In this document: positions 1,190-53,400 of the stretch, piece by piece | Layout: each line of letters opens with the position of its first letter | Position numbering within the stretch: the stretch's first letter is position 1 | From: Perna viridis | Taxonomy: Eukaryota | Length of the DNA: 64,000 nucleotides | Direction: 5' to 3' | Assembly (NCBI GenBank): GCA_037379345.1 | Contig: CM074519.1 | Span: forward strand, 41,708,851-41,772,850 | Program-made: the position numbers and the translations under genes | Notes under the pieces: model-generated | What the model saw: only the letters and a program-made list of their open reading frames with translations | Told to the model about the DNA's origin: nothing | Databases searched by the model: none

Positions 1190-1538
1190 CTCCTTTTCTC
1201 CAACATCTGCCATCAGATAAATTTCTTATCGTCTCTACATCACTCTCCAGAACTTTCTTAAAAACAGTATTTATAATCAGCTCCTTAATCTCTTTATCTA
1301 CATGCTGACAATTCCGTGATTTCTCTTTATTCTGTTCTCTTGGTTCAAAATCTGTGGACCATTTCTGTCCACTGTCAAGTTTTTGGTATTTAGCACTTCC
1401 AGGGTCTGATTCTCCGGTTGAGTTGTCATGGCTCTTTGTCTTTGATTTTGACCTTGACTGAATATAAACAGTTCTTCTACTGTCCACTTCTGCCTCCTCT
1501 GATTCAGGATATGTTCTGTCTTGTCCAATAAAACACAC
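1190..1538 (-). CDS. TRMT44: TRMT44 exon 9
   Basis: VCFIGQDRTY...FEPREQ...RNC...RCWRKG G|gtaatg. Confidence 0.88.
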
Positions 1539-4500: not shown

Positions 4501-7500
4501 TGAAAGTGTGACAGTTGTACAAGGCAGAAACAATGTCTCCCCACCACATAATTACAATTAAATGGCCCTAATATGGCAACATTTCAATAACAATTCAAAT
4601 TAACAAAAATCATTATAATGAACATCAATGCATTAATTTGAAGTAATATTTTTACAATATACAAAACAATTACTTAGTAATAATTTAAATAATCTATAAT
4701 ATCATTCCTAGTATCATGAACAAGAACATTATATTTTCTAGTCTTAAAACAATCAAAAATATATTGCAAAAATAATATTATTCATGATAGTAAAACTTTT
4801 AATATTTTTCTGAGATTATATTACAGTAAAGTGTCTTCAAATTACTGTACACAGAACATTCTAAAAGAAAATTTATTTTGCCTTCTATGTAGTTTTATTT
4901 ACATTCTGTTTATATATACCTTAAGAACTGTACTGTCTCCATACATATCCCAAATCTTCCTCTTCCGAATATCAAGACCAACACCAGGGTGCTGTAAGGT
5001 ATATAATAGAAACAATTTGGACAGTTGAATAATAGAGAGCAGCTTTTGTTAAAAGTACAACTATGAAGGATCCCACAATATTTGATAATTTAAGTATTGG
5101 AATAGCTTCTGTGCCAGTGAATTGGCTAGATACTGAAAAGTTGAAAAAATAAGTTGTCCTGAAGACATAAAAGCATAATCTGGAAATTCCTGAAACACTG
5201 TATGTAGCAACTTATTTATTTTTAAAGTCAGAATAAAAAAGGATCTTACAATCCTGTCAGTTAAATAATGAAATCTCTCAATAAAGTTTTACTGTCTTGA
5301 TTGTAGAAATGTGGTAACCACCTACTGATTAAGATTCTATACATAGAACATATTTCAACTTTACTAAGTAAGACCTACATAATTCAAAGCATATTTCTAT
5401 CAAAATAATCCAACATCCCACTCCATTTCCAAACCTTACCCCTTAACACAATATGTATATGTTCTATTACCAGTAGACCATTTCCACATTCCAGATCTTC
5501 CCCTTTAGAAGACAATATGTGTACCAGCAGACCGACCAACCCCTTCAGAAGAAAGTCTGAGTACCAGTAGACCATTCCAACATCCCAGACCTACCCCCTC
5601 AGAAGACAGTATGTGTACCAGTAGACCATTCCCCCATCCAAGACCTACCCCTTCAGAAGACAGTATGTGAACCAGCAGAGGATTCACATATCCTAGACCT
5701 ACCCCTCCAGATGACAGTATGTGTACCAGTAGACCATTCCCCCATCCAAGACCTACCCCTCCAGAAGACAGTATGTGTACCAGTAGACCATTCCCCCATC
5801 CAAGACCTACCCCTTCAGAAGACAGTATGTGTACCAGTAGACCATTCCCATGTCCCAGACCTACCCCTTCAGAAGACGGTATGTGTACCAGTAGACCATT
5901 CCCCCATCCAAGACCTACCCCTCCAGAAGACAGTATGTGTACCAGTAGACCATTCCCCCATCCAAGACCTACCCCTTCAGAAGACAGTATGTGTACCAGT
6001 AGACCATTCCCATGTCCCAGACCTACCCCTTTAGAAGACAGTATGTGTACCAGTAGACCATTCCCATGTCCCAGACCTACCCCTTCAGAAGACAGTATGT
6101 GTACCAGTAGACCATTCCCATGTCCCAGACCTATCCCTTCAGAAGACAGTATGTGTACCAGTAGACCATTCCCCCATCCAAGACCTATCCCTCTAGAAGA
6201 CAGTATGTGTACCAGTAGACCATTCCCATGTCCCAGACCTACCCCTTCAGAAGACAGTATGTGTACCAGTAGACCATTCCCATGTCCCAGACCTATCCCT
6301 TCAGAAGACAGTATGTGTACCAGTAGACCATTCCCCCATCCAAGACCTATCCCTCTAGAAGACAGTATGTGTACCAGTAGACCATTCCCACATCCAAATC
6401 CTACCCCTTCAGAAGACAGTATGTGTACCAACAGACCATTCCCACATCCCAGACCTACCCCTTCAGAAGACAGTATGTGTACCAGGAGACCATTCCCACA
6501 TCCAAGATCTACAAAGGATTGTTTCTTCTCTAACTTCTTTTTCTCTCTTTCCATCTTCCATAATACCTACAAAAAGAGATAAATGAAAAACCATTAGTTC
6601 CTTCTGTAAGTTCATACTCAATCACAGCTTAAAACATCAGTGACATATAAACAATTTTTAGTTTGCAACTGTCTTTTTCTCCCGGGAAACATAACATTAA
6701 AAAATTAAAAAATCTATGGATCTTCTCTTTGGCGTAGTTGTCCATCGATCACTTCACAAAATGTTTTTATATCCAAAGAGTACAGTAACATTGTAGTAAA
6801 AGTTTAAAGGAGCAATCAAGGGAACCAATATTTTAGTGGAAAACAAAAGAATGTAATCCAGAGACAAAGATCACACATGGAAAACAGATACACACAAAAA
6901 AGAACATTATTTTAAGTTCGGTGATTTAAGGTGAGTTAGTCAACAGCATGGGAAACAATTAAATTTCTTAAATTATGGCTCATCATGAACACTGCATACA
7001 GGAAAGGCATATAACTACTTTACCAGCAAGTAAGAAGCTATGGCTACATCTTCATAAACAAACTTTTGTGGATCTGTACTTTCAGGCCAGTTCTAAAATA
7101 AAAAGAATAGTGATTAAAGGTTTTATTATCAACTGGAAACCACAAAGTTTATTCTTTAACAATCACCTTTAATTCATGCTGATTATTTCATAGTCTTCTT
7201 CTCTTATAATTCTTAAATCTATTTAAAAAAAAACATCAACAATTCTTCCAAAAGCTCAGCCAAGCATCAAGTATTTTGACCTATTTGTACACTTTCATCA
7301 TCTTCATACCCCAACAAAAAATACATTTACTTTAGTATCAGCATTGACAAAGGTGGAAATAACTTGAATTAAACAGTGAGTACTCTTTTGAGGAAGGTAC
7401 AGTTTGTTGTCTTTTGTTCTATTTGTTAAGGTGTTCTGTATCCATCTCAAGAGTGAAATCTAACACTGACAGATTGTTTTATTGATGTATTTTCCCACCC

Positions 7501-10500
7501 CTGTCCCTGGTTAGGGGAAGGGTTGAATGCTCACAAACATGTTTAAACCCAGCCAGATACTTTATGTGCCTGTCCAGAGCCAAGAACCAGTAGTTCAGTG
7601 GTTGTTGGTTTTTTTATGTTCATTGCTATTCCTTTTATGTTTTTTCTTTAGTTTAGGTCAATTTCATCTTTTATGGATAGTTTCATATAATCTATTTTGG
7701 GGTCTTTAACAGGTCACTTTAAGATATGGGTTTTACCATCATTGAAGATGCAGGGACGGATCCAGGGGGGCCCTGTCCCCTCTTAGAATTGCAATTTTTA
7801 AAAATTGTTGAAATATTGTTCAAGATACCCCCAGAATGCAGGATTTAAGGTTTGATATTTCAAAATTTTATTGAAATTTTATCCAAAGCCCCTAACAAAT
7901 TCAGATCACTTCGTGACCTGTGATCCTGTCAAGAAATTTTTATGAGGCCCCCCATTACCTAAAACTCTGGATCCACCATTGAGATGTATGGTGACCTGTA
8001 GAAGTTATTTGCCATTTGGTGGATGACTAGCAATCATACCACATTTCCTATTTTCACATCCTTACAACAGTAATCACAAACAATTGTAAACATAAAATAA
8101 AGTAATTCATGATTTACTACAACTAATCCAATAAAACATTAAAAACTTTTTGTGAATATAGCAACTGGAAACTAAAAAAAATTTCTAAAAATTCTAATTT
8201 GTTGCGACATCACATCATTATATTTATCTTTTTTATTTCATCAACTATTAATAGTTGATACTATAAATGCGATTCATTTTTACAGCCAGAATCTAACTAG
8301 AAAAACTCAGACCAAATCTCACTAAAGGATACTCCCCCTCATCAGTAACTATATGGTTAAATTAATAAAGAAAGATGTTGAATATGAAGTAGGTGTTGCT
8401 TCAATCTGAAATCATTCTCACAGTAAAGCTTCCATCACAGTATTAGGTTGCCATGGTAAGTAGTTGCAGAGAAAACTAAGAAAAAATTGTGAACAGATGA
8501 ACAGATGTACTAACAGACAGACTGAAAACACAACTAATGATCAAATTACCACCCACAAAGCAGAGGATATTATAATTGGAACTTTAATCTAGCATCCCTT
8601 ACCTGAACAAAATATCTTCCATACTTTTCCTTTAATGTGTTGTAAACCTGGCTATACTCCTCAATGGGAAGTTGTCTAAGGGAAGTAACTGTTGTTTTTA
8701 GTTTGGACTCAGCACTCCAGGAACATAGCTTTGGTAATAAAACAGTGGACATCCAATCAAGAACACTTGATTCATCACATGACTCTGTAATATTTATCTT
8801 CTTCAGCTGAATTCTAAAATATACCTTATTGATATAGAATCATTTTGTTCATGGATGGTAACACTGCTAGTTACTGTTTTTTTTTGCCAAGTATGCAGTG
8901 AGTAGGAGACAGAGTGACAATTGAATGGTTCTGAGTTCAAATAATGCTTTGGGGTGAGATGACATATGCCTAACTACAGGCCAAGATTCTGTGAGCTAGC
9001 ACAATAAAAATCCAGCTCAGCTTGTCATAGTATTAACAAAATTATGTGTTAATTTTGTCAAAAATTTTACCCTCACAAATTGTATCCCTAGGAATTACCA
9101 GATCAAATCAAGCACTTTCAAGTAACAACTTTTTGTGATAAAAGATTGTTAAAGAAGACTTATATTGATTATGTATGTACCTGTTGTTGGATTGCTCTGG
9201 ACCAGTAACAAACACTAACTGGTAGGATGATACATCTGGAAACTTTTCCTCATTATATACATAAAATGATGCTACTACACTCCTCTCTTTGTCTAAAATA
9301 CAGTATCATAAATGTTCTGGGTTTCATATGATGTAAAATGTATCAAGTGTGAAATGATTACTAGATGTTCACTTTATACATGTATATAACTTGGTCCTAT
9401 TGTCTACTTCTCAGATGAGTAGATAATTGTGATTATATATCACAACAATGTGATACCATCAAGCACATTCTTTTCTTTTTTTTGGTTGCAATTGGTTATT
9501 GTGTGATTGTTTCATGTTGACAATGAAATCTGATTGGTTAAAAGAATCATACTGACAGTTCTTGCACTGTTCTCATAGACAGAAAATCCTTTAAATTTCA
9601 TGCCAAATATCAAGCACTGAAATATTCCAAATGATATCTCATTAAACCCAGGCAAACTACAAAGTTATTCAATTTCAAAATCATAACAATGTGGGTAAGG
9701 CAATATACCCAGTAATTAAATCATCAATGCTTACAACACTGTACTAAACATGACCTGTGACATTGTCAAAACTGATTTGTGACATTGTTGCCTGATCTGT
9801 GAGATTGCTATCATACATGTGACATTGTTATCTGATCTCTGACATTGTTATCTGTTCTGTGATATTGCTATCATATACATGACATTGTTATCTGATCTCT
9901 GACATTGTTATCTGTTCTGTGATATTGCTATCATATACGTGACATTGTTAACTGATCTGTGACATTGCTATCATACATTTGACAATGTTATCTGATCTGT
10001 GACATTTCTATCATACATGTGACAATTTTATCTGATCTGTGACATTGTTATCATACATGTGACATTGTTATCTGTGTGACTTTGCCCATGTATGATCATT
10101 GAAGACAATGGTTGTATTGATGAACAATTTATAGAGAGCTACGATGATCAGACGTATTACAGTCCTGATCTTCATCAATATATGAAAATGAGAGAGTGAC
10201 ATCACTTTAATTTTGGTGTTGTCAGAGGGTAAAATGACCAACACCAGGACAACTACTTTGCCCAATCGCCAGTAGCATGAACTATGATCAACAGTCTGTT
10301 GACAGGCAGCTCAGTACTGACATGTAGTCATAAGTTGGTGTTACCTTTAGTTTTTCATTCACTGTTGATGTGGCAAACATGAAAGATTTCTTTTATTCTT
10401 ATTTGAATCAAAGAAATTTTTCCTTGAATTGAACTGGTTTATGTTTTATATAGTTCTATTCCAGACAATTATTTAAAAGGATTTTAAAAGTCATGACTTA

Positions 10501-12669
10501 AAGTACTGAAAGAGTAATCAAGGGAACCAAGGTTGTAGTGGTAATCAAAAGAATATAATCCATGGACAAAGACCAGACATGGAAAACAGATATACACAAT
10601 AAAGAACATACAGTAACTAAAATAATACATACAAAGTAACAAAAGTAAATGAGCAACTTGGACTCCACTAAAAACTCGGAGCATGGACCAGATGTACCAG
10701 TAGGGTAAGCATGCTCAGCTTTTCTAGAAACACCCGCCAAGTTGCACATAAAAAGTCAAGTCCAGGGTAGACGAAAGAGGAAAGGAAAACTATGACACGA
10801 TGAACAAATCAGTTTTCGTGGCACAGATGGATACACCATAATAATCCACAAGTTCATGATGATGACCATAAAACTTCTGTAGTGATGACTTCAATCTTGT
10901 AGCAACACAACCCTTAGTCAAAATTTCCTCTGTCCCTGCAACCCTCCTCTTTGTTATTTGGATATTGATATGTTGGGTTGGGGTCAGAACGATGTGCCAT
11001 ACAAAAAGTTGGAGATTTAGCGGTACCGCAGAGTATCGCCCTTCAACCGCTTGCAACGACTTTCAAGTTGAAATTGTGCATGTCACACCTACCTAGTTCG
11101 ATTCCGGAATCATTTTCCTGTATGCTGATACCAAATTTGCTACAAAAATTACATTTATCATTGAAGTTTCGATAATTTTTTACGAGAGACCCTGTTTTGT
11201 TGACATTTTGAACCGTAATAGAGAGTAGGCGGAGCTTGTTACCTTTGGAACGGAACGGAGCAGAAACGATTTTTTAAACAGGAATCCAACAGAATATTTC
11301 AAAATTCCGCTGAAAAATTACGTGTCCATTACCTTTCCGTTCCAAAAGTAACAAGCTCCCCCTACTCTCTATTACTTTTGGAACGGAAAGGTAATGGACA
11401 CGTAATTTTTCAGCGGAATTTTGAAATATTCTGTTGGATTCCTGTTTAAAAAATCGTTTCTGCTCCGTTCCGTTCCAAAGGTAACAAGCTCCGCCTACTC
11501 TCTATTACAGTTCAAAATGTCAACAAAACAGGGTCTCTCGTAAAAAATTATCGAAACTTCAATGATAAATGTAATTTTTGTAGCAAATTTGGTATCAGCA
11601 TACAGGAAAATGATTCCGGAATCGAACTAGGTAGGTGTGACATGCACAATTTCAACTTGAAAGTCGTTGCAAGCGGTTGAAGGGCGATACTCTGCGGTAC
11701 CGCTAAATCTCCAACTTTTTGTATGGCACATCGTTCTGACCCCAACCCAACATATCAATATCCAAATAACAAAGAAGAGGGTCAGAGGAAATTCGGACTA
11801 CACAACCCTGTTCCAGAGCCTACTTGTTAGAATTGTAGCGCGATACAAAAAGTTTGCTTAGTTTCGGCAAGCTCTGGCATAGCACATGAGTTGTGATATG
11901 AACACTTCATACACAGGTAATGAAGTACTGAGAGGTTTGAAAAAAAATATATGTCTTTGAACATGAAAATTTTACTTTCAAATGCTTCCTGTTTCCATAT
12001 AAATGTATCATTCTAATTTGTTTATGAAATTATCAATTCAATGAGAATCTCTCCAATATTATCCCAGTTATAATCTCAAATAAAATAGATCTTTTCTATA
12101 ATGGAAGCAAATGCGTTTATAAGTCATCTAAGGGACTGTGATGTTTAGTGAAAGTTACTTCTTTCAGTATAATTTTGATTGAAAAAAAATCACTAGATTA
12201 CGTGTACATGTAAGTCAATTCAAAACAAATATCCTTACATGTAGCTTTCTGAAACTTCAACCATTGAAATCTTTAAAGTACCTTCAATAAGAATTAATTC
12301 ATTTGTATTGTTCCTCACATCTTTACTATTCTTGTAAATCAATTTTCTTTCAATGACAGCTGTTTCATTTTTTGGAATGTCCTGTAGATTTTCTATTTCA
12401 AGAAAAGTAGTCTCTTGGTGAATTTCGTTGTGACCTATCGAATTTCTTGATTTTTTCAAGTAATCGTTTATCTTTACACTATCGCCGTCCACAAAACAGA
12501 AATTCAATATACAGGTACCACAGAGTCGCCTGTTCACGACATGTGGTTTGTTTATCCAGACTGTGATGGCATCAATAAAACCAGACTTATTACCGTTCGT
12601 GGTTTTTTCGGCTATAATATGGTCAAAATTAAATGGGTCACACATATCGGAAATCTTTTCAGTAGTCAT
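1190..12669 (-). CDS. TRMT44: tRNA (uracil-O(2)-)-methyltransferase TRMT44/Trm44, multi-exon, 3'-incomplete in this window
   Basis: Exons in transcription order: 12669-12282, 9292-9181, 8813-8603, 7092-7024, 6566-6459, 4991-4920, 3943-3837, 2455-2272, 1538-1190. All introns are GT-AG and phases are compatible. Family motifs: [105 protein letters not shown]. The C-terminal exons were not found in 1-1189. Confidence 0.95.
2272..2455 (-). CDS. TRMT44: TRMT44 exon 8
   Basis: SSYTCQYFVLPCCHYDF...[11 protein letters not shown]|gtaagt. Confidence 0.93.
3837..3943 (-). CDS. TRMT44: TRMT44 exon 7
   Basis: [36 protein letters not shown]. Confidence 0.93.
4920..4991 (-). CDS. TRMT44: TRMT44 exon 6
   Basis: [26 protein letters not shown]/GT flanked. 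Confidence 0.93.
5440..6512 (-). repeat. 54-bp minisatellite (about 20 units) derived from the TRMT44 exon 5 end plus 5' splice site
   Basis: 54-bp period (e.g. agaagacag at 5763 and 5817); each unit encodes (V/I)GLG(C/W/H)[13 protein letters not shown]; 18 units in one open frame plus about 2 degenerate distal units. Confidence 0.97.
6459..6566 (-). CDS. TRMT44: TRMT44 exon 5 (SAM-binding motif I)
   Basis: [36 protein letters not shown]|GTAGGT. The first donor is assumed; further in-frame donors follow in the 54-bp array. Confidence 0.85.
6810..6915 (-). repeat. Short fragment of the same Penelope-like 3' UTR repeat
   Basis: aatcaagggaaccaa...catggaaaacagatacacacaa matches 10516-10600. Confidence 0.65.
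7024..7092 (-). CDS. TRMT44: TRMT44 exon 4
   Basis: [25 protein letters not shown]/GT flanked. Confidence 0.93.
7751..7981. mobile_element. MITE with CAGGGxCGGATCCAG TIR and 5-bp TSD (hAT5-like)
   Basis: TSD AGATG at 7746-7750 and 7982-7986; TIR cagggacggatccag / ctggatccaccattg; nested in an older repeat at about 7490-8060. Confidence 0.75.
8603..8813 (-). CDS. TRMT44: TRMT44 exon 3
   Basis: IQLKKINI...WMSTVLLPKLCSWS...YNTLKEKYGRYFVQ|gtaagg. Confidence 0.9.
9181..9292 (-). CDS. TRMT44: TRMT44 exon 2
   Basis: ttttag|..DKERSVVASFYVYNEEKFPDVSSYQLVFVTGPEQSNN|gtacat; open and bridges phase 1 to phase 2. Confidence 0.75.
9755..10082. repeat. 20-bp minisatellite with 40/60-bp higher-order pattern
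   Basis: Alternating gtgacattgttatctgatct and gtgacattgctatcatacat units. Confidence 0.9.
10497..11920 (-). mobile_element. Penelope-like retroelement 3' fragment (RT C-terminus and 3' UTR), split by the foldback element
   Basis: Joining 11920-11810 to 10914-10790 gives a degenerate PVYEVFISQLMCYARAC...EQGCVATRLKSSLQKFYGHHHELVDYYGVSI, a PLE RT C-terminal region common in bivalves. The UTR part 10500-10740 matches 63800-64000. Confidence 0.7.
10915..11800. mobile_element. Non-autonomous foldback DNA transposon, AcademH-like
   Basis: Termini TAGTC...GACTA; 9-bp direct repeat CACAACCCT at 10906-10914 and 11801-11809; near-identical inverted arms 10941-11351 / 11372-11782 around a 20-bp spacer. 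The AcademH label rests on recalled family traits (TAG termini, 9-bp TSD). Confidence 0.8.
12282..12669 (-). CDS. TRMT44: TRMT44 exon 1
   Basis: ATG at 12669 (MTTEKISD...[15 protein letters not shown]...LILIE); donor GTACTT, phase 1. Confidence 0.85.
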
Positions 12670-17650: not shown

Positions 17651-18659
17651 ATGGCGACTAAAAATCCGGTAACAATTCCTTATATGTGTTTGGAGTTATT
17701 AGTTTTCGTCTCTTTTGTTTTCGGTGCGACTGTATTTAGAGACAGCGTTGATTATATTGTACCAAGTAATGCACAAACTGGACATATTATAACAAAACTT
17801 GGGTGTAGTGACACCGGTATATTAATACGACCTGAGATCAGAGGTCAACTAGATTATCAACTATTTTCAGAGTTGTTTTCTTTAGATAAAAGCGGAAATC
17901 TAGTCGTTAAAAGTGAGTTGTCTTTACACGATGGAAAATATTTTACAATATCGGTATTTTCAAAAGATAATTGTTTTCAAAATGTCGAGAACACACGGAC
18001 GTTTGGTGTTGTTATATCAAACCCACAAGATCATTTAGACTTGGGAAGACAAATATTCAAAGGTTATGTGGATGGAAATTCAAAACCTGGAGATCTAGTG
18101 AAAGGACTGGAAAATTTAGTGCAATCGTTGAGAGACCCATCAATTTCATGTTCCCTGATTGGTGATAGTGCCAATTTGTTCGATTTATTACCCTCATCAA
18201 AGGGTGTAAAAATCTTGTCAAATCCCTTATCCCAGGGTGAATCCGTGTATTACTCACTCCAATGTATCAGAGGTAACGCTATAACAACTAATGGTCTCCA
18301 TATATCATATCAAAATCAATCACCAACAGACACCGCGGCCGATCAATCCGAACCACTAATTGACAATCTCCTCAAATCTTTTGATCAAATATCGGTATAC
18401 CCACATACACAGTCACATCACCGTAGGAAACGACAAAGTATCGATGTCCGGACGCTCACTGTCAAAGAGAACGTCACTGAAATCGTAACCCTACCTAACG
18501 ATGCACAAGGAAACATACAATGGTCAATCATAGACAACACCGATACATTTACAGTAAACAATCAAGGCAAAGTCAGTGTGAAGCCTGGCAAGAAACTGGA
18601 CTATGACTACGGTAGACGACAGTATAGTATTACTGTTACTGTAGCAGATGGGCAAACTG
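17651..18659 (+). CDS. CadN: cadherin exon 1 (signal peptide, pro-region, RRKR, first EC)
   Basis: MATKNP...HHRRKRQS...[22 protein letters not shown]|gtaggt. Confidence 0.88.
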
Positions 18660-26447: not shown

Positions 26448-26478
<31 letters not shown>

Positions 26479-38400: not shown

Positions 38401-41400
38401 CTGGTATTGTAATCACATTTTCTGATTTTTAAATAATTTTTAAAATATTTTTTTTGACTTAGTATTGGCTCAGATATAATTTCTGACTATGTATTGGCTA
38501 AAAGTATGATTTCTGATTACATATTGGCTCAGTTATAATTTCTGACTACTTATTGGCTAAAATATTATTTCTGACTACTTATTGGCTTAGATATAATTTC
38601 TGACTACTTATTGGCTAAGATATAATTTCTGACTACATGTTGACTAAGATATAATTTCTGACTACGTATTGGCTTAGATATAATTTCTGACTACTTATTG
38701 GCTAAGATAAAATTTCTGACTACATGTTGGCTAAGATATAATTTCTGCAATGCTTTAATTTAAAGATTTAAAGAGATATATTTGTACACTTACTGTAAAA
38801 GTGTTAACTTTTGCAGTGTATTAATTTTTGCTATTTTCATGGTGGACTGAAAAGCACAAAAAATTGTACCCACAAAATTGATTTTTAACACTGTAGAACA
38901 CTTTTCATTTTTTAAGCAGCAGAAATTGATACCTGTGAAAATGTTCACTTGACAGAAAAATTAGCAACCACAATAATTAATATGTTTACAAAAATCTATA
39001 CATGACTATTTTTACAGAGGCTGTGTTCCAGTATAGTATAGTACAGGGGGCAGGCTCAAATTTCTTTGCCATTAAGACCAGGGAATTGATAGGAGAAATT
39101 GTAGTAGGTGGTAATCTGGATTATGAAACAGGACCAAATGTAAGCGAACTTTGCTTTTTCATTTTTTTTTCTCAATTTAGAAAGGAAAATTGTTTTTCTA
39201 TGTAGCCATATGTATATTTTCTGTATACTTATGAGAAGCCTAGAAATTACTCAGTGTACAAATACTTGGAGAATCAATATGTATAGTATAATATCCCTTA
39301 AAGTTAATTAAGATAATTATAATGTTTATTCAGTATAACTCTATGTTGTCAGGAGAATTTTTCCTTTTCCCACGGTAAATTTTACTTTTAACCAGCTTTT
39401 TAAAAAAAAATGGGAGTAGTAGGAATGTACTACAAAACATGTGCAAAGCATCTGTGATTGATTGACTAATTTATTGATTAATTAATTGATTAATCATCAA
39501 TCACACCACCTAGTCAATGCTTTAATTAATTAATTAGTCTTTTACTAACCTTTACCTTGCTCATTTTACAGAAATACAATCTCACAGTAAAAGTTGATGA
39601 TGGCAAATTTACTGCTGAGACCATAGTAGAAGTATCGATTATTGATGTAAATGATAATCCACCGATATTTAATCCTTCAAGTTACTTAATCACTAATGTA
39701 ACTGAAGAGGTTGATTACTCACTCAGCAATCCCAAATATATATTAACTGTAAGTATACCCTACTCATATCTTATAAAATCAATTATACTGCAATTCTTCT
39801 ATTGAAGTAACCAAAATGTATTGGCAGTATATTTATTGATGATATATGGTCACTGACAGTATATAACTACTTTCCTACCCTTGCATGAACTACCTGTTTA
39901 TTGTAGTTTCACCATCAGGGGCTACTAGTGGGGAAGAAATGTGTAGTTTCACCATTGTGGTCTACTAGTGGGGATGAAATGTATAGTTTCATCATGGGGG
40001 TCCACAAGTGGGGAAGAAATATGTAGTTCAACATCAGGGGCCACTAGTGGGAAGAAATGTGTAGTTTCACCATCGTGGTCCACTAGTGGGGAAGAAATGT
40101 GTAGTTTCACTGTCGGGGTCTACTAGTGGGGAAGAAATGTATGTGGTTATAAACATGTCGTATACAAATTAAACTTAATTTGATAAATGATTAAAGTATA
40201 AAGACAATAACAGTATTTCGACTAGAATGAAAAAAAATGATAATTGAATTTGGTACAAAAAAGAAATGCTCAGCATAGCCATTTGTTTTATTCTGATTCT
40301 AAACCTCATCTCTATATATTGTTTTCAAGTCAATACACTGTTATTGTCTATGTCTACACAAACTGCCAGGAACATGTAATTAATTTCTGTTTGATGCTCA
40401 TTATGATGTCATTATTACTTTAGTTATTCAATGATTCTAACATGTATATTTCCATACATGTAGTCATCTGATTACCATATGATAATCAAATCATAGGAGC
40501 AATATGTCATAATCATTTGTTGCACTTTGAGCTGTATGAATATTTTATGAGCAAGAAAAGTTTGACAAAATAGTCGTTTTGTTACTTTTCAATTTCTTAG
40601 GTTGGTTATCCACCAAGTAAAGTAGTTTCTTAGCAGTTGTGTTATTAAAATGGCAGTATTTTTTTCAGGATTAATCAATCATGCCATTTATAAGTTTTTT
40701 TTAATATGAACTATCAGAATTAACATGTTTCATGATGTTATCTGTGAACACCGTTTACTGTATATATTTTTGTACATGCAAATTTGAATGATTTCAGGCA
40801 AATGCCACTGATCCTGACACATTTAGGCAGAAAGGTATGGAATATAAAATTGCCAATGACGATCCTAAAATATCTCAACTCTTCACGATCGATTCTACCA
40901 CTGGTGTTCTTAATCTTGTTGGGAAGCTGGATCGTGACAAGCCAGATGGACGTGCCGTTTACCAGTTTAATTTATTGGCCATTGATGAACCAGGTGAAAC
41001 AACAAGATTGACAGGTTATGCCACAGTTCAGATTAAACCTATAGATATAAATGACAATGCTCCTGTGTTTACACCATTAAATCCAACAGGTTCAGTAAAG
41101 GAAAATTCACCTGTGGGTAAGTAACCTGAATTATACTTTGCTTTGAATATATATATATATGGCCAGCCCATGGTAAAATTACTATAAAGTGGAGTTTCTG
41201 TGATTTATATTTCTCCTTTTTTATTTATACACAGCCTATGTGTTCCACGAAATTGTGACTGCTTTTGAGTGAAATTCTGTTGAGAAGTCTGTAAAATGAT
41301 ATAAAATTAATCTGTGACATTGCAAAACAGACTGTCAAATGTCCATGACATTGGTCAAATGGCAGGTCCAGGTGTTAAAAGAATAGGCCTGCAGCAGCAC

Positions 41401-44400
41401 TAAGCTTGTCGTAAAAGGCGACTAAATAGAGCAACTGGGATGTGTGCCCCAGGTGGTGGAATGGGGTACCCCTGGCATGTTACATGCTGGGGTTGTCAGG
41501 CTATAATACGGAAACCTGACCACAAACCATAGTGGTGCACCGTGTTGGGAAAGATGCCACGTTCCTCGCACATTAAAGAACCATACTGTGGTATTCTCCT
41601 GAAGTAGGAACCATAGGGCTCCGCCACAGGAGGCTAAATTGCCCAACCCTACCCACCTCTCCCTATTTCCAGTGGCAATCAAAATTTGTCGACCCCATTG
41701 TCCTTGTGTTCCATCCCTTTTTCATTTCATCATCATTTCATGTTCATTTTATCATCAATTTCATGTTCATCATCTGAATATAGCTGAAATATTGCTGCTC
41801 GGACGTTAAACCCCAACAAACAAACAAAACAAAATTGGTCAAATGTTTATCACTTTTTGAACAGAGCTTTGGTTTTATGAGCTTTGAAACATGTCATATT
41901 AAAATGTTAATTTAATGCTTTCTAAATCAGCTTCAGCTTTTAAAATTTCCTGGTTTTAAGACAATTAATTATTTTTGTTGACATGTACAATTCTTTTTTT
42001 TCCTTAATAATATGATATGTTTGATAGTATGATTATATAAGCCTACATTTGATCACAGAGATCCTTATAATTTTGTCATGACCTTTTATTGCTACTGATT
42101 TAAAATGTTGGTAATTAGATACTCAAGTACATTTAGATTAGATCTTGATGATTTGTCAGTAGCTTACAGTATCATGGAATAAATAGTTTTAACATAAAAC
42201 TAATGAAAGACAATGAAGGTTATTCTATGTTTTTAAATTTGAATGTTTTAGGTCAATCTGTAATGAGAGTTCAAGCTGAAGACTATGATGAAGGAGTTAA
42301 TGCTCAGTTTTCCTTCCAAATGATTGGACAAGGTAATCCTAGTACAGCCTTCAGAATAGAACCTGATTCAGGTATTGTCCATACCACTATTGGTACTTTG
42401 GATCGAGAGATGTATAGCCAGTATACTTTTGTTGTCATGGCGACCGATAAGGGAACACCTCAGGCTCAAAGCAGTACAGCGACTGTCACCATTAATCTGA
42501 TTGACATCAATGACAACCCACCTGTATTCAACCAGACTGTTTATAAAGAAACTATACCAGAGACACATAGTGGACAGATTTTAAAGATCAAAGCATATGA
42601 TCCGGATGTTGATGAAACTCTAAGATATTCTCTCAATAAAGAAGCTTATGCACATTTCACAATTGACACTCAGGGGAGAGAAGGCATTATTGGTGTTTAC
42701 AATGGTAGTGTAAGTTGTCTTATAGTGCTATTCATTATGTTTATAAAAAAACAAAGAGGAGTAGGAGGGTCAACTTTCGTGTCTAGCAGAAAAAAACTGT
42801 AGTCCTCCATAAAGAATAACAATGAAAAAATAGATAGGAAATAGAAATATGAAATCAATAAATCATTTTACAATATAAATAGATATCAACAAACCATCCT
42901 AACAGATATTCACCATTTGTATCAATGTGAAGGAGTTATTTTTTTTGCAGGGTACCAACTTCCATGGGTTAGGCAAATACATGTCTATTTATAGAAGTGT
43001 TTGGTCTATTTACTATGGATTTTGTCTATTTTAAGACTTGCTTCTACTTTTAGAACCCTGACTTCGAAGCGGGAGAAACATTTTTTAATTTAACTGCTAC
43101 GGTAGTGGATAGAGACAACAAGTTTTCAGCATCAACAAACATTCAGATAACAATCACTGATGTCAATGATGAAAAACCAATATTTAAGGAGGAAAACAAA
43201 GAGAAAAGTTTATTAGAGGGACCACAGAATCCAGTGGGGACAGTCATAGCCAACTTCACAGCCACAGATAGAGACAATGGCATTAATGGCCAGATCAAGT
43301 ATGTAATTGTTTATTATTAATTGTTTATTTACAATTGTATTTATTGTACCATTTATTTTGGGGTTTTCTCTGAATGGATGTTGACAGACTAGTTCATTTA
43401 GCTTAGGTGTTACAAGTTTAGTTTGCTTTATTTTTTTGCAAGAATGTTACTCTGAAACTTTACAAAATTTGAGGACTTGCTTTTGAATTCTTTTTGAACA
43501 TGTTGAAATGTTATGTGCCATATTATTTATAGTGATTATGTAATTTTGTAATACTGTGAAAGTTCTATTGTTGGTGGGGAACTAATTTTCGTGGTTTTTT
43601 TGGGTAGTTCAAACAACAAAACTTGGTTCTCAATGAAAAGAAAATTCCTATTGATGTGAATACTGAAAACCTCAAAGGGCATGAATTCAAGAATCCACAA
43701 AATTTGAGTTTCTTCCCTAATCCATGAAAATTGGTATCCATAAATTTCTTTCACAGTAGTTACTGTTTTAACTAAAAATAAACCTTATCATATTTCAGGT
43801 ATTCAATAGCTCAAGCACCTCTTGATCAAGAACCAAGAAAGTACTTCAGACTCCAAAACTACCCAAGTGATGCAGATCAGCAGTACACTACTGTCATTCT
43901 ACAGAGAGAGTTAGATAGAGAGACAATTGCCAAGCATACAGTTAAAATTCTTGCTATGGATTCTGGTATGTAATGACTGATTCTATTCAGTATTTCTGAT
44001 AGAACTCCACAAACTAGTTTTTCAAAGAAATTTAAAAAGTTTTTAAATTTTTTTTGGTCACATTCATTAAAAACCTCTAGACTGCATTTGATTTTTTTTT
44101 TCACATTTTGGTTTGGGTCTTCTCTCTTCCAAACAATGGCTATTCCACTTTTTTCTCTACAGGTATGTGAAAAAAATTGTAAAATTTCATACACGAACCT
44201 ATTCAAAATTCAAGTTCATCAATTATTTGTGTTCAAGTTTAAGAACTAGTGAAATGTTCATTTTCCTTAATAAAATAATTACTATCCCTTAATTCCATTC
44301 CCAAACCATGAATATGACTATTCACTGTATTCTGTCAATATTGGCCCAAAACTGTCTTTAGCAGATAAATATTAATTCGAAGAAAAACTTATATGGACTG

Positions 44401-47400
44401 TACTAGACTTATTCAGTGGAGTAATCTTTCTAACAAGCGGTCCCTTGTCAATAAAAATCACCCAAGATTTACTAGAAATGTAAATCTGTAAGTAACCTAT
44501 ATGATTTTGATCTTGGGTGATGTTCAGTGAGTCATGAAGAATGTTGCTCAGTAATAAATCTGTCTATAATTTTGATTTTAGGTTATCCCCAGCAAACAGG
44601 AACAGCAACTCTAACAGTAAATGTCCTTGATATAAATGATAATTACCCAAGGATAAAAGGTAAACCATATGCTACAGTAAAGGAGGGTGAAGCAGCCCAA
44701 ACACTGGTGACAACTGTTGAAGGTGACGACCCTGATTCAGCAGAATATGGACCACCTTTTGGATTCTCTGAGGTTCCCTGCAATCCAACAGACCCCAATG
44801 CTGCCCAGTGTAAATTTAGTTTGACCTTTGATCGTAGTAAGTGTGTCTTATTGTTAACTTCTTTAATCTGGCTTTATATACCTGACCGTTTGTAAGTTTT
44901 ATGTGATGGGCTCAGTTTTTTTATTAATGGGCATTTGTACATCAATTTGTCCATTGTTCTCCTGTTGGTTTCCTCAGGATAACTTAAGAAGTGATCAGAT
45001 CACTCACTTGAAGAATTTGTTATAAAGACTATTCCAGAAAAAATGTCCTGAGGGTTTGGAACACTAAAGCATAACAGGGGTATCACCAATAGTATTTAAT
45101 TATATTGTAATATTTAGACAATGCTGTTATCAAAGAATGAACCTTAAATGCCTCGATAATAAAAATCCAGTTGAGTTTCAACCCCCTGCCCATTCTAAGC
45201 TGGAAAAGCCCTAAGATGATTGTGTCCTGTCTACAGTCTGATAAAGGCTTGTCATCTGCATAGTACATCCATTTTTTTCCTATATCCTTAAACTTTGTTG
45301 ATAGGTATATAAAGGTTGATGGGATTGATTTTCACTTAACTCAGTAAAGGGTGACCACTGTTTTGGGAGAGGGACTGAACTTTTCTAAAGAGTGTGAATG
45401 GGGGTGCATGGGGTATTGTGAGCATGCATACTAAGGTTCTTTGTCATTGTGTTAATGTTATGTATATTTTTAGATGGGGATGGTGGAAATGGTGTCGCAC
45501 AAATTAGGACAAAGCAGGTGTTTGACAGGGAGCAACAAAAATTCTACTACTTACCAATTAAAATGTGGGACAAGCGGGGAGTGACTGGGGCCTTGTCAAT
45601 GACTGGTACCAACACATTGACAATAGAGATTGGAGACATCAATGATAACCCACATGGTCCTGGTACACAGAATATACATGTATATAATTATAAAGGTAAG
45701 AAAGCTGTTCCTCTATTTCATCTGGTCCTTTCTAGAACAAGTAATCAGTGTTGTTCAGGGGATATAACTTCCCTTTTTGAAGCAAAATAGAAATGAAATT
45801 GGACATGTTAAAAACAAGCATAGAATTGTTTAAACACTTATTATTAATATCTTGGGAAAATGTGTCGTCAAAAACACCCCCTCCTAACTCCCTAGAAAAT
45901 TTCTGGCTATAGGTTTGTTGATTGACTCATATTGAGTATTTACAAAGATGTTTGATATTTTTGATATGTTTTTAATGCTCAAAAACTGGATAGAAGAAGT
46001 AATCAAAGTTGCTATACGTCAAACATTCTTTGTCATTGATTTTGGCTTGCTTTTAGCATCCAAAATAGCATGAATACGATATGCTCCCAAATCAGGTGGC
46101 TCCCATTAGAATCTTGGTTCCTTTGATTTGATTACACTTTCATAACCCTGATGACCCATTAATGTTTCTCAATCAGAACAACCGGTTACCATGAAGTGAG
46201 GGTAATGTTTTTGTTCCACAAGTTTCTCTAAAATTTTAAGCAATCTTTGGATTGCTTATGATATTGACCAGGAAACCAGATTAGGAACCAGATTAAAAAA
46301 TATATGGGGGCCCTGATAATGTTTATGATCTGTATAGTCAATTGTAATGAGCCCCTGTTTCTGAATCAGAGACTGAGTAATATTGTAAGTGAACATATAC
46401 TTTAATTCATAATATAATTATTTTTAGGGATGTTCAAGAACATACCAATAGGCTTTGTGAACTATGAAGACCTGGATGATCATGACATTGATGACAAGAC
46501 TTTTACATTCAGAGGACCGACTGAAATGGCCAAGTTCTTCAGGTATAACACTTTTGAAAGAAAAATTGAGTTCATTTATCTAACTTGGTACATTTTTAGA
46601 TAATTTCCTAGGGAAATTAAAATATATATATATTTTTTATCTTGATAAGAGTGGTATTGGAAAAAATCAACATCAGTTGATTTTTTTTTTTAATTTTGTC
46701 CTTTTATTCGTGGGTTTTATCAAAATATTTTGTAAAACTAAAACACAATAACTATATCCTTATAAAGGCAATGATATCCTATGGTATTTTCAGTGTGAAT
46801 GCAGCAGATGGTATGGTAACCTTATTGCACAATGTGCCTACAGGAACATGGAGGTTTAAAGTAGATGTATATGACCGAAAGTTTGCCACAACAGCAGCAT
46901 CAGATGTTGTTGTGAAGATTGAGGAGATGCCAGAGGAAGCACCGTACAAGTCTGGATCCATAAGGCTTTCTGGTCAGTACTGTCATTTCCTAGTCTAATC
47001 AATAAGCCTTTTTGTATGTATGATTTTTATTTGAAAATGTTTAGTACCAGTAAATTATGAAGTAATGAAATCAGTCTTTGAAAATTAAATAAAAATCAAT
47101 AGCTTACTTTTTATTTATTATTGGTACAGGAACAACCCCACAAAATTTTATTACCCCTGACAGCTCTGGTCAATCACCATACAGTAAATTTCGTTCCCGT
47201 CTGGCATCAAGTCTTGGTACAGCTGTTGAAAATGTAGAGATGATAAGTGTACTACAGAATGGAGATTATACTGATGTGAGATTCTCTGCTCACGGTTCTC
47301 CTTACTACTCGCCAACCAAAATGAATTCTGCTGTTCTGAGGAACGAGGCTGGTGTAAGTAATTTACTCAGTAAATTGCTTTAGAAGACAAGACTAGACAA

Positions 47401-50400
47401 GACTGATTCTTTATTTAACCTCTGACACATTTGTGTACATGAGGACAAAACATAAACAAACATACATTCACACATGTATAGTACAACAAGATATTAATGT
47501 CACTTAGTCTTATAAAAAAGTAAGCATATAGGTTCAGTGTAAATTTTTAAAAAGAAGTTGTAATATATTTCTAACAAAGATGGCTAAGTTTCTATACATT
47601 TGCCAATTACAGAATGACAACATCCCCTTTAGTTTGTATTCACATGGGGTCTGAATGTTGTATTGTGGTATATAAGGTACACACAGATTTTTAACATTAT
47701 ATAAAAGGGTACTGAAATTCATTTCAAAACCATCCTTTTTTATAAATAGTTAAGGGTAATGAAAGAAAATGATGCTTTGAGAGTATTTTTTCAGGACACA
47801 CTAGAAGTTTTTGACTGATAATTTCATTTTAATATACTACATGTTATTTTAGTTTCAACAAGATGCTGGTGGTAAGATAGAAATGGTAAACATTGATGAA
47901 TGTCTGAAGGAGAGCTGTGAATCTGGTTGTTACAACTATCTGAATGTTACTGGTAAAGCCAACTTGGTGAGCATCCGAGGAAACTCAGTTGTTGGTGTTG
48001 AAACATTCGTCACTGGTAAATGTGGATGTCATGAACCAGTCAGCCAAACAGACTGTGATCCTACTTACTGCTTTAATGGTGGAACATGTAAAAAAGATTA
48101 TTGGAATGTTCTAAGGTATTTATTGCCCCTCTTTTAGATTACTGGAAGGTTCTAAGGTAGTTATCTCCCATTACTGGAATGTTCTAAGGTATTTATTGCC
48201 CCTCTTTTAGATTACTGGAATGTTCTGGGGTAGTTATCTCCCATTACTGGAATGTTCTAAGGTAGTTATCTCCCATTACTGGAATGTTCTGAGGTATTTG
48301 TCTCTCCTTTGACCTCTTTGAGGATTTTCTATTTTTATAGGTGTTAAACAATGGTGCATTTGTTGTGTTCCTTTTTCTGTTTTCTGAGATAGTTATCTCC
48401 CTTTCTTTAGATTAATGTAGTGATCTTCCTTGTTTTTTATTACTGGAATGTATGAAGGTAGTTATCCCCCTTTTTCAGTTAACTTTGTAATCCTTCCCTA
48501 CATTTTACTGGATTTTTTTAGGTATAGTTTATCTCCTTAACCTTTACTGGTAATTATTTAGATTACTGTAATGTCCTTGAGATAGCCATTTCATTATATT
48601 TATCTTTTCTATTTATACATGTTTTTTCTAACTCTAATTGCTTACCCTAATTAGTTGTACATTGGAAAATTCAAAGGGTTAGGACAGGTGATGGAATAAC
48701 ATGTAGCACTGTTAATTCTCATGGTTTGAATCCAACATTTATTTATAGATATACGTGTAATGATCTGATTAACAATCTTTATTTTTCAGTTGTGAATGTT
48801 CAGCAGGATTTGATGGACCACGTTGTCAATCAACACGCCATGGATTTGATGGCACAGGATATGCCCTCTACAAACCCTTGGAGCAGTGTGAAAATTCTGT
48901 CACTAGTATTGAATTCATTACAACAAAGCAAAATGGCTTGATCATGTATAATGGTCCAACAATGGATAATTCTGAGCCTCAGGATTATTTCTCCCTGACA
49001 CTCGTCAATGGATATCCGGAACTGAAGATAGACCATGGATCTGGTGTAGAGACTCTGTATATCAACTCTCCAAGACTAAACGGAGGATCTAAACTGAGTG
49101 ATGGCAAGTGGCATCATATCAATATCATCAGAAAGAGCAAGGTAGGATTCTTGTTAAAATAGTCATTAACTATATAGACTCATTGTAGAATGTTCAGAGA
49201 ACCAAGTTGTCTGTCTGTCTGACTGTCTATCTGTCTGTCTGTCTGTAACATGATTCATGTTGTGATGAATATCAGTGAGTCTTTATAATATAAAAAAGCA
49301 AGGTTTTGTATGTTATTTTTCCTATTCAGTAAACACCCTTAATAACTAATAGAAGAAGAAAAATGTATCAGAAAACTATAAGTCTGATTATCCGTGTTAG
49401 CTACAAAAAAAAAACCTAAAGCAGATTTTACTCATTTATGAAAAAAAAATCTCATCACCCATTGTTACTTGGCTTATCTGAGTCATATCTGTCATCTTAT
49501 TTTTTGATGTATAATTAATAATTTTCTATATAAACATGTATTTACATGTAGCTTTGTTATTACAGCGTGTAACGATGACTGTAGACTACTGTAAGGACAT
49601 CCAACCTACCACTGACAGTATTGTAGAAGATAGATCCCCATGTGAAATGACCAAATCAACGCCAGGAGAAAACAAATTCCTTAATATCAACGGACCATTA
49701 CAATTAGGTGGTCGTTACACCACTCCTAATCTGCCAGCAGGAATTACAACTAACAAGTTTGATGGCTGTGTGCGGAATCTCAAGCATAATAAAGAGGTGA
49801 AATAACATCACAATAATCTGTCAGATTATCGTTATTGTAGAACTTTGATAAATTTAAAAGATATTGTATTTTCAAACTTTGTATAGTTATTGTGTGTCAT
49901 AACATACCGATTAAGTTCCAATTTCAGTTTAATATGCACAAAAACTTTTACCATTTTTACCCCTCAAAATTTTTGGCATGTTTGAAACATTGTAGGGTAT
50001 CATTTAATGTTCTATTAGATGCTGTATTTTTTTATTGAGAAGTTATTCGTGTTTGTATATAGATTTTCTTCAAAATGCTTCATTTGCACATGTTACACCT
50101 TACAGAATCTGCCAGCTAGCATAGACAGTCTTACATAAGTGACTGTAAAGTCAGTAATGTCTAAGTGATATAATAAAATAAGACATGTAACTGAATTCTG
50201 ACAACTATGGATCATACTGATGTATTAAAGTAGCAAACTTAATACAAAGCAGTCATTGGTTATGTCTGCTCTTGATAGTATGTATTCCACAAAAAAATGT
50301 CAAAAAGAGACTTAGAAGCCTGACTAGTTGATATAAGTTTTTAAAATGGATAATTGTCAAATTGAATGTTAGTAACATAAATACCTGTTTCATTGTAGCT

Positions 50401-53400
50401 GTACGATTTATACACGGGGTCAAATACCTACCCAGGAAGTTTTGATGGATGTCCTAAAGAAGATGATGCTTGTAATTCTAACAGCATCAACCAGCCTAAG
50501 AAATGTGGTGATAATGGTGACTGTCAGCTGACTAATGCTGTCACTGGAGAAACTGTATGTGTTTGTCACAGTGGTTGGAGAGGCAATAGATGTCAAACCA
50601 GTAAGGAACAGTCAACTAATTATTGCAGATACTTCTTTTTTTAATATATAATCATTGTTGAAAGTGTAATTTGAAATTCTCACCAAGGCAAATCATGAAA
50701 ATTAGCACAAACGAAATTTCCATGTTTAAAGTGACCAAATAGATGTCAGTTATTGTTCACCGTTTAATTCACCATAACAGTCTCACATTCTTTATGTACT
50801 TTTTAACATAAATGTTTTAGAAGTTGGACATAAAAATACTATACTAAAACTCATGCCCCACAACACAGCAGCAGCAATAATCAATTTACATTAACATGCC
50901 ATATTAGGCTGAGTAACTTTATAGTGCTTTCTATCAGGTACAACTGTGAGAGACTTGTACCAGGCTGGTAGTTACATGGACTGGACACTAACTTCAGCCC
51001 TACAGAGTTTGTTGAACCAATGGGATACTGATGTCCATGTGATGTATAGGACACGAGACAAGGATGGTGTAATATTCCATGTGTCGTCCACCATCAGTGA
51101 TGAGTTTATCAGACTTGAGGTATGTTTCCTTTAGACAGAGTTGCGTACCCTTACAATGTTATGTATTGCTTATGACTTTTAGGCAATCTTGTGACTTTTA
51201 GGCAGTCTTATGACTTTTTATGACTTTTAGGCAATCTTATGCCCTTACAATTGTTGTCAAACTTTCTGAATTACTTTTATTCCTAGATTTTTTTTTTATT
51301 TCATTACATCTTTTTTATAAGACTCTCTAACTGTTGTACCAATGGTCATTTCTGGTTTGAAAAAACAAAACAAAACAAAACTATGTCCAGACATAGTTGT
51401 GGTGAAAAGTGATGCATTTTATTCATATTCAGCCACAACTTGGATGGTTACTGTCCACAAAATCAGCTTTTTGTGACAAAAAAGGAACATTTTGATTTTT
51501 TATCTCAATTTACTATTTTTTGGGGCACACCTTACGATTTTCATCATCAGGTCTGCCTTAGAATTTCAGGTTACAAATTACAATTGAAAATAACCTTAAT
51601 CAGTGGGCATATTTCACTCCAGTAGAATATGACTAAATATTCTTGATTTCTGAAAGGTCTGTAAGTTTTCAAATATTTATTATAGATATTTGTAATGATG
51701 ACACCCCATTACTATTTTGTGTTAAAAATACTATGAACAAGTTTTACATATGATAGTTACTAGAGAATATATATTACAAGTACATGTATTCTATGATGTC
51801 TACAGATTGTGAGTGGCCATTTACAAGTATTGTACAACCTTGGTGATGGTAACCATGTTGGTAGTCTAGATCGTGTATCAGCCAATGATGGACAATGGCA
51901 CACCGTCAAAATTAAAAGACGAGGGAAGTTTATGGCTTTGTCAATGGACAATGGTGAAGGTTCACATTACTGGGAGTTCCAGGGACCAGACAGTGGTCAT
52001 CATTTGTTTGAAGTCCGTCCAAACCAAATATATGCTGGGGCTGCCTTGGACTATGGTCACACCACCCCACAAGTGGCAGATAAAGATTTGGATAGCGGTA
52101 AGTCTAATTGTCAGATTTTACATGGAAAATCACACAATAGACAGGTGAATACTGAGCATTCCTGGTAAAATCTGAAAATATTCAAATAAAAGATCTACTT
52201 TATAGACAGCAGGTTCCTAGTTATGTTACCAGTAATCAATATATGAATTTAACCGTTGACCATCTAAGCACTGAGAGTCTGATTTCATTCTGACAGGAAA
52301 TTAATCTGTAATACTGAGTAAGGATCTTTACTAGTTTCCTATTCTTCTATAAAAACAAGATGTTGCTTGCATCTTTAATTTTTTTCAAATTATGAAGAAA
52401 ATTAAATCCTAGCTGACATAAATACATTGGATCAATATATTCAAATTCGACCTCTTACAGGTTCCACCTTTCTTGTATTATTTTCTATTTTAATTCAATG
52501 TTGTATTTATTTCAGTTTGCCTGAATGATATTCGTCTTCATAATAAATGGTTCCCTGTGACAAAAGCAGAAAATTCCCAGACTACATTTGTAAAGTTGGG
52601 TCAGTCTGTGTATACAAGAGAGAACTGTGTAAGGGATGACTGTGCCAATATTGTATGTCCAGATACATTTGTCTGTCGACCTCTGTGGGAGGCCTATGAG
52701 TGTGTGTAAGTATACAAATTATCTTTTGTTAATTGACATCTGTTGATGGCCTTTGAGTGTGTTGTAAGTACAAAAATATTAATTCTTCATATTTTCTGTT
52801 GCTGGAATAGAAGACAAATATAAGGTAGATTTCTCAGGGGTTATGTCCCTTTGACTGAATCTGGTGTAGATACAATGAAATGAGGTCTTATGAATATATT
52901 TTTGTTTTATCATCAATTTTGTTCTTTTTTAGAAACTAATAAAGCATACACACTTATATGGATTGTTAACTTGCAATCTCATCTGAACTTTGAAGTTATA
53001 TATCTTATTATATTATCTGTTTTTAAAAGAGCTTTGTTTCATAATATTTATAAAATCTCTGATATTTTACATGAAAGCGCTGATATGGTCAAATCTGGGT
53101 AAACATTTTTCTCAAAATTCTTGGTATATCTTGTGACTTTAACATACCATCTTGTCTATTTCCAGTTGTCCACCTCACCACATTAAGGTTGGAAGTGACC
53201 AGTGTGTTCCAATCGATTACTGTAGTCAGCTGACACCGTGCCACCCTGACGCAACATGTGTTAACGATGTCACTAATGACTATGGTTATCGATGTGACTG
53301 TCATGCTGGTTGGTCAGGAAGAACATGCTACACGGCACCTTATGTAGAACCAGCCTCTGCAGGCATTTATGCAGAAATATGGGTCCCAATTATAGTTATA

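What the first reader, a model, noticed from the sequence alone, without database searches (positions are those of the whole stretch)
5440..52775. Window-wide pattern: tandem repeats nucleate on exon/intron junctions
Seen: 4 of the roughly 46 donors I located (TRMT44 exon 5; cadherin exons 6, 25, 31) sit in the first unit of a tandem array that copies exon end plus donor into the intron. Other arrays end close to acceptors (33700-34050, 35698-35910, 62895-63152). Inference: one in about 12 donors seems high for random placement. It suggests a lineage-wide mutational or selective process, such as slippage or break repair at junctions being tolerated because the proximal donor wins, that grows introns and turns over splice sites. 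I am not aware of this being described as a system, but I cannot search the literature here.
Basis: inference. Interest (0 to 1): 0.7.

Follow-up and report, generated by a model that had tools for sequence, protein, structure and literature searches.

The report
Repeats pile up on splice donors
Short DNA repeats that copy the end of an exon and its splice signal into the next intron are real here and, in 59 other genes of this likely mollusc genome, are about three times commoner at splice donors than chance but not at acceptors; such repeats are already known from lancelets and humans, and they likely survive because the first donor is still the one used.

Summary
The four donor cases are real: three tandem arrays (TRMT44 exon 5; cadherin exons 6 and 25) and one decayed two-copy duplication (exon 31). 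Assembled RNA uses the first donor at all three cadherin sites; TRMT44 was not tested.

In 59 other loci (1,386 homology-validated introns), 37 donors lie in an array against 13.5 expected (2.7-fold, P=2e-8). Acceptors are not enriched (10). A second method agrees. GC content explains only part; 2.4-fold remains. Rates are 1 in 37 overall and 1 in 15 near contig ends, where this window lies, so the window is typical of its position.

Not supported: acceptor proximity, intron creation and splice-site turnover. Donor arrays make up 1.1% of intron bases.

The kind is known: lancelet "mirage" minisatellites and human F7/CBS/ABCA7 VNTRs. This scan has also noted single cases in other genomes. Nine literature searches found no measured donor-specific excess. 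Most likely, ordinary local duplications are tolerated at donors, then kept and expanded because one copy is constrained and GC-richer. A mutational hotspot just after the donor is not excluded.

The parts
5534..6512 (-). 54-bp x 18 minisatellite; unit = last 47 nt of TRMT44 exon 5 + first 7 intron nt; 12 of 16 listed downstream units keep GT; the array reads open and in frame for 317 codons after the true donor
   Evidence: donor use not tested by RNA
6459..6566 (-). TRMT44-like exon 5 (methyltransferase motif I); donor at 6458
1190..12669 (-). TRMT44-like gene, 9 exons within the window
   Evidence: open translation
17651..55900 (+). classical cadherin with EGF, LamG and cytoplasmic domains; 35 exons, 2,899 aa ('type III' label recalled)
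   Evidence: joints from exon 6 onward seen in assembled RNA
31618..31879 (+). 68-bp x 3.9 array spanning the cadherin exon 6 donor (exon ends 31625); three downstream GTAAGT copies
   Evidence: RNA joint 31625-32614 in runs of 3 studies
31873..32197 (+). 66-bp x 5 younger derivative of the exon 6 array; its donor motif has decayed
48095..48304 (+). 32/41/73-bp array spanning the cadherin exon 25 donor (exon ends 48115); five downstream GT copies
   Evidence: RNA joint 48115-48790 in run X4; contig lengths agree
52677..52780 (+). decayed two-copy 58-bp duplication spanning the cadherin exon 31 donor (exon ends 52705); below the TRF threshold
   Evidence: RNA joint 52705-53166 in run X4
33700..34050 (+). 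decayed copies of the last ~30 nt of intron 8; abuts the exon 9 acceptor but does not extend into the exon
   Evidence: normal joint 33515-34052 in RNA
35700..35894 (+). 61-bp x 3.2 intronic array ending 57 bp before the exon 11 acceptor; not junction-spanning
62886..63152 (-). 78-bp x 3.4 intronic array ending 22 bp before an acceptor of the third gene; not junction-spanning

Best explanation
These are 'mirage'-type minisatellites: local tandem duplications of 20-125 bp that copy an exon end with its donor and are about three times over-represented at donors, likely because they are tolerated there and then kept and expanded longer than arrays deeper in the intron. Shown: the arrays are locus-specific; the excess is at donors and not acceptors; the first donor is used at three cadherin sites; downstream donor copies decay like neighbouring bases; unit length shows no frame bias. 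Inferred step 1: slippage or break repair makes a duplication anywhere, more often in repeat-rich regions near chromosome ends. Inferred step 2: a donor-spanning duplication leaves the first copy intact and the spliceosome takes the most upstream donor, so it is neutral, whereas multi-copy acceptor arrays place rival AGs upstream and would more often be purged. Inferred step 3: the exon-derived copy is under purifying selection and is GC-richer, so the pair stays alike longer and remains able to expand by unequal exchange.
For: Excess: 37 donors vs 13.5 expected, and 10 acceptors, in 1,386 introns. It holds in dyneins (15 vs 6.7), myosins (11 vs 3.3) and ABC transporters (11 vs 3.5), and far from contig ends (19 vs 8.5). 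The probe method, independent of TRF, gives 46 of 930 donors vs 18.7 per interior bin (P=1e-6) and 22 acceptors. Survival rather than birth: the excess is weak in young or small arrays (>=94% matches: 7 vs 3.7, P=0.075; <2.5 copies: 6 vs 3.3, P=0.1). It is strong in older or larger ones (3.5-3.8-fold below 94%; 21 vs 4.0 at >=4 copies). Old two-copy relics are enriched at both donors (12) and acceptors (10) against 4.2 interior, as a constrained template predicts. Interior arrays with more copies are GC-richer (rho 0.37). First-donor use: and shown experimentally for human F7 (PMC1557585). In 25 of 37 arrays a downstream donor scores at least as well as the annotated one. GT change in the nearest copy is 8 of 74 vs 101 of 808 other G/T positions (P=0.85).
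Against: GC weighting removes only a factor of 1.3-1.5. A 2.4-fold excess remains (locus bootstrap 1.6-3.3), and 3.5-fold at >=4 copies. I did not model how much the constrained copy adds. The unit ends 18 nt or less into the intron in 24 of 37 arrays vs 15.7-17 expected (P=0.002-0.008), which a breakpoint hotspot also predicts. A direct test of the anchor was inconclusive: the first unit was closer to the core than the last in 12 of 18 donor arrays (P=0.08). Purging of acceptor arrays is inferred only; 10 vs 13.5 is not a significant deficit. Sequence identity is a poor clock for arrays that homogenise. First-donor use in the 59 loci rests on homology-guided models in which exons lying wholly inside arrays were forbidden, not on RNA.
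Confidence: 0.55

Rival explanations
1. Mutational hotspot: co-transcriptional events at the 5' splice site (U1 loading, polymerase pausing, RNA-DNA hybrids or the nucleosome edge) would cause germline breaks or slippage a few bases into the intron, so duplications are born there more often.
For: The intron part of the unit is short (<=18 nt in 24 of 37). The excess is donor-specific for multi-copy arrays and survives GC weighting. Even the youngest class is 1.9-fold above expectation.
Against: The youngest and two-copy classes are not significantly enriched, while older ones are. Old relics are enriched at acceptors too. Arrays starting 0-60 bp after donors are not significantly enriched (21 vs 45, P=0.15). 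No direct evidence on breaks or hybrids.
Confidence: 0.25
2. Selection for extra donors: repeated U1 sites would strengthen exon definition, protect transcripts from early cleavage, or give a ladder of isoforms.
For: Most downstream copies keep GT. The TRMT44 array is in frame and open for 317 codons. Positions -3..-1 diverge a little less (8 of 111 vs 116 of 939, P=0.12).
Against: GT decays like other bases (P=0.85) and unit lengths are in frame at the chance rate (13 of 37). Array donors are not weaker than average (6.2 vs 5.7). No downstream-donor joint appeared in the listed RNA joints (contigs drop rare forms, and 26 joints were not shown).
Confidence: 0.07
3. Artefact of the null or of the annotation: the placement model underestimates expectation, or gene prediction is drawn to arrays.
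For: The sample is 1.99 Mb of 723 Mb from three gene families. Gene models come from my own predictor, and 426 of 1,812 predicted introns were dropped as unvalidated. Arrays cluster by locus (37 in 21 loci).
Against: The result is the same with unvalidated introns included (49 vs 17.6), with a stricter validation (33 vs 11.3), with >=10 bp overlap (32 vs 9.9), with per-locus and pooled nulls, and with a locus bootstrap (2.0-4.2). The same pipeline gives no excess at acceptors. The predictor recovered 33 of 35 cadherin exons exactly, though the cadherin was in its training set.
Confidence: 0.1
4. The arrays are an engine of intron gain and splice-site turnover, as the first reader and the mirage model of Ebner et al. 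propose.
For: The mechanism is plausible and tandem duplication is a demonstrated route to new introns (PMC3443670). Array-bearing introns are longer (median 838 vs 447 bp).
Against: Array-bearing introns are at paralogue-shared positions as often as others (17 of 27 vs 659 of 1,034, P=1.0); near-shifted positions are 3 of 27 vs 118 of 1,034; none of 1,386 introns is wholly an array. Validation by homology selects against shifted junctions, so this test is weak for rare events.
Confidence: 0.03

Closest known systems
'Mirage' minisatellites of amphioxus: Adh3 (Canestro et al. 2002, not held, known only as cited), globins BflGb6/BflGb9 (PMC3087553, passages read), PGBD5 (PMC3902484, passages read)
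   Same: Tandem repeats whose unit spans an exon-intron boundary; overlapping unit sizes (10-160 bp there); normal splicing reported; several cases per genome, suggested to be general in cephalochordates.
   Different: Those papers describe single genes, on both donor and acceptor sides, with no test against chance in the passages read. Here the rate is measured and the excess is donor-specific. Different phylum (likely a mollusc). Length polymorphism was not tested here.
Human exon-intron VNTRs: F7 intron 7 (37 bp), CBS intron 13, interferon-inducible 6-16, LMNB2, PDGF (PMC1557585, passages and Discussion read); ABCA7 intron 18 (25 bp; PMC5954066, passages)
   Same: The first unit holds the authentic donor, followed by identical pseudo-donors; the most upstream donor is the one mainly used.
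   Different: Human cases are isolated loci, and some leak to the second or third donor (6-16, CBS, ABCA7). Here about 1 donor in 37 carries an array, and leakage could not be measured from contigs.
Intron gain by tandem genomic duplication (Rogers model; review PMC3443670, passages)
   Same: A local tandem duplication carrying splice signals.
   Different: That model duplicates an exonic AGGT and creates a new intron. Here the duplications sit on old introns and no new intron was found.

Membership tests
mirage / exon-intron junction minisatellite | head-to-tail repeat whose terminal unit spans an exon-intron boundary | tested here: met
   three arrays; exon 31, two copies
mirage / exon-intron junction minisatellite | repeat units retain splice signals (pseudo-sites) | tested here: met
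   GT kept in 12 of 16 TRMT44 copies, 3 of 3 at exon 6, 5 of 5 at exon 25, 1 of 1 at exon 31
mirage / exon-intron junction minisatellite | normal splicing at the exon-adjacent site | tested here: met
   for cadherin exons 6, 25, 31 (assembled contigs, rare forms not visible); TRMT44 not tested
mirage / exon-intron junction minisatellite | unit is locus-specific, not a dispersed repeat family | tested here: met
   no hit for the TRMT44, exon 6 or exon 25 arrays in 59 loci; one match of the TRMT44 stretch in the genome (that search skips common words); the 37 units are unrelated to each other
VNTR | copy number varies among alleles or individuals | not tested
intron gain by tandem genomic duplication | new intron made of the duplicated exon segment, at a novel position | tested here: not met
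   0 of 1,386 whole-array introns; positions shared with paralogues at the background rate

The most novel reading that the evidence does not exclude
The 5' splice site is itself a germline duplication hotspot: events tied to donor recognition leave breakpoints 4-18 bases into the intron, so splicing writes a donor-specific footprint into the genome and seeds about one minisatellite per 12-37 donors, a general process of which lancelet mirages and human F7/CBS/ABCA7 VNTRs are scattered examples.
Probability: 0.2. Interest if true: 0.78.

Novelty: new member of a known kind. Interest (0 to 1): 0.42.

Why it matters
The repeat type is known, but I found no count against chance. A roughly 3-fold, donor-only excess turns scattered anecdotes into a testable rule and gives hundreds of natural experiments per genome on how the spliceosome chooses among equal 5' splice sites in an invertebrate. 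If the excess proves mutational, it would link splicing to germline DNA instability. In practice, these arrays create false mini-exons in gene prediction: my first models did this.

Tried and rejected
Acceptor proximity: no excess.
Frame bias of unit length: none.
Selective keeping or loss of pseudo-donor GT: none detected.
Intron gain or sliding: none detected.
GC content as the sole cause: rejected.
Regional repeat density as the sole cause: rejected by the per-locus null and by the excess far from contig ends.
Anchor polarity: inconclusive.
First count in dyneins used models with false mini-exons inside arrays and was superseded.
A lower TRF threshold did not change the result (38 donors vs 16.7).
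No listed run is on record as RNA. The runs used are guessed RNA, but their contigs are spliced. In one search only 1 of 4 runs gave the transcript. RNA evidence for TRMT44 was not obtained.
Pfam gave no match for the two exons of the third gene tested; its WD40 identity is recalled from motifs only.
Three primary papers were not held (Canestro 2002, Zhuo 2007, Gao and Lynch 2009). PMC10078293 (passages) concerns short-motif repeats and splicing variation and gave no junction-spanning test. No supplements were read; one could hold such a count.
Full report
The window. Reading the sequence and checking frames by script gave three genes. A classical cadherin on the + strand has 35 exons and 2,899 open codons (Pfam cadherin, LamG and cytoplasmic matches). 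A TRMT44-like methyltransferase on the - strand has 9 exons in view. A third, - strand gene has 5 exons (two of its boundaries were corrected, which changes no array overlap). Together they give 46 introns. The window is G000:C9:41.71-41.77 Mb on a 45.0-Mb contig.

Checking the four donors. TRF lists 25 rows. Fifteen merged arrays with period of 10 bp or more touch introns; 3 span a donor and 0 span an acceptor, against 0.67 expected per side (P=0.024). TRMT44 exon 5 carries a 54-bp unit of 47 exon plus 7 intron bases, and 12 of 16 downstream copies keep GT. The cadherin exon 6 array has three downstream GTAAGT copies followed by a derivative array that has lost the motif. Exon 25 has five downstream GT copies. 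Exon 31 is a two-copy relic missed by TRF but significant by alignment (0 of 930 unrelated introns score as high). The three arrays cited as near acceptors do not span them.

Which donor is used. Spliced contigs of runs guessed to be RNA join exon 6 at 31625 in 3 of 4 runs, from three studies. They join exons 25 and 31 at 48115 and 52705 in 1 of 4 runs, and contig coordinates fit the exon 25 length. No downstream-donor joint was listed, but contigs drop rare forms and 26 joints were hidden. TRMT44 has no RNA evidence. Its array is in frame and open for 317 codons, so a ladder of isoforms there is not excluded.

Testing against chance elsewhere. Because the window was picked after the fact, I fetched 59 loci chosen by gene family, not by repeats: 19 dynein heavy chain, 25 myosin and 15 ABC transporter loci (found; 1.99 Mb of 723 Mb). 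I predicted exons with a homology-guided model. It recovered 33 of 35 cadherin exons exactly, with the cadherin in its training set. I kept 1,386 of 1,812 predicted introns whose flanks align without gaps to a homologue. The null places each array's founding unit uniformly over the same locus's introns. Of 298 arrays, 37 span a donor and 10 an acceptor, against 13.5 expected per side (donor 2.74-fold, P=1.7e-8; acceptor 0.74-fold, not significant). The excess holds in each family, with all 1,812 introns (49 vs 17.6), with stricter validation, with at least 10 bp of overlap (32 vs 9.9) and under a locus bootstrap (2.0-4.2). A TRF-free probe test on the 930 introns long enough gave 46 donor hits, 22 acceptor hits and 13-23 per interior bin. 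The 37 units are mutually unrelated and lie in 21 loci. Within 5 Mb of a contig end the rate is 18 of 278, elsewhere 19 of 1,108, and arrays in general are about twice as dense there. The window's 3 of 46 equals the near-end rate. Treating contig ends as chromosome ends is an inference.

What shapes the excess. It grows with copy number (1.8-fold below 2.5 copies, 5.2-fold at 4 or more) and with divergence (1.9-fold at 94% matches or above, 3.5-3.8-fold below). Interior arrays favour GC-richer sequence, but weighting for this leaves 2.4-fold (1.6-3.3). Decayed relics below the TRF threshold are enriched at both junction types (12 donors and 10 acceptors vs 4.2). Pseudo-donors change at the background rate and unit lengths show no frame bias. 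In 25 of 37 arrays a downstream donor scores as high as the annotated one. Units tend to end shortly after the donor (24 of 37 within 18 nt). A polarity test of the anchor idea was inconclusive.

Reading. The simplest account is duplication anywhere, tolerance at donors through first-donor use, longer life and expansion because one copy is constrained and GC-richer, and more frequent loss of multi-copy arrays at acceptors. The last three steps are inferred, apart from first-donor use at the cadherin sites. A hotspot just inside the intron explains the short intron parts and the residual excess, and remains the main rival. That last test is weak for rare events.

Prior knowledge. The kind is described: 'mirages' in amphioxus (PMC3087553 and PMC3902484, passages) and human F7, CBS, 6-16, LMNB2, PDGF and ABCA7 VNTRs (PMC1557585, passages and Discussion; PMC5954066, passages). 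Nine searches turned up no genome-scale test of donor versus acceptor enrichment and no mollusc case. The library lacks most subscription papers, three primary papers were not held, and no supplements were read. Enrichment of human VNTRs near chromosome ends was seen only as a search listing (PMC7608644). Earlier notes of this scan report single arrays of this kind in shark, abalone, annelid and other genomes; I did not check them.

Verdict. The elements are new members of a known kind; the measured donor-only excess is the new and partly unexplained part.

Noticed in passing
window 10941-11351 and 11372-11782: Perfect 411-bp inverted repeat with a 20-bp spacer in TRMT44 intron 1; a young fold-back element or inverted duplication, possibly an assembly feature.
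   Followed up: no
window about 41430-41830: Highly repeated element in cadherin intron 16, with RNA-contig depth above 10,000 in the 41513-42169 bin in all four runs; SINE-like by appearance.
   Followed up: no
window 35666-35697: Short motif just before the 61-bp array that RNA contigs show as tandem variants from other loci (table 5c); similar units occur in dynein introns, so it is likely a dispersed minisatellite family.
   Followed up: partly
window 5534-6458 (- strand): The TRMT44 intron 5 array is an open, in-frame 18-residue repeat of methyltransferase motif I for 317 codons; a likely trap for gene predictors.
   Followed up: partly
L008-L013 (G000:C4 near 21.20 Mb) and L195-L197 (G000:C12 near 0.45 Mb): Large acceptor-spanning arrays do exist: 43 bp x 71 and 74 bp x 46, each filling most of its intron.
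   Followed up: no
L087 (G000:C6 near 26.762 Mb): A 64-bp x 13 array whose unit holds a whole 18-nt AG-to-GT mini-exon-like segment; whether it is a real exon was not checked.
   Followed up: no
59 sampled loci: Multi-copy minisatellites are about twice as dense within 5 Mb of contig ends (20.7 vs 8-9 per 100 kb).
   Followed up: partly
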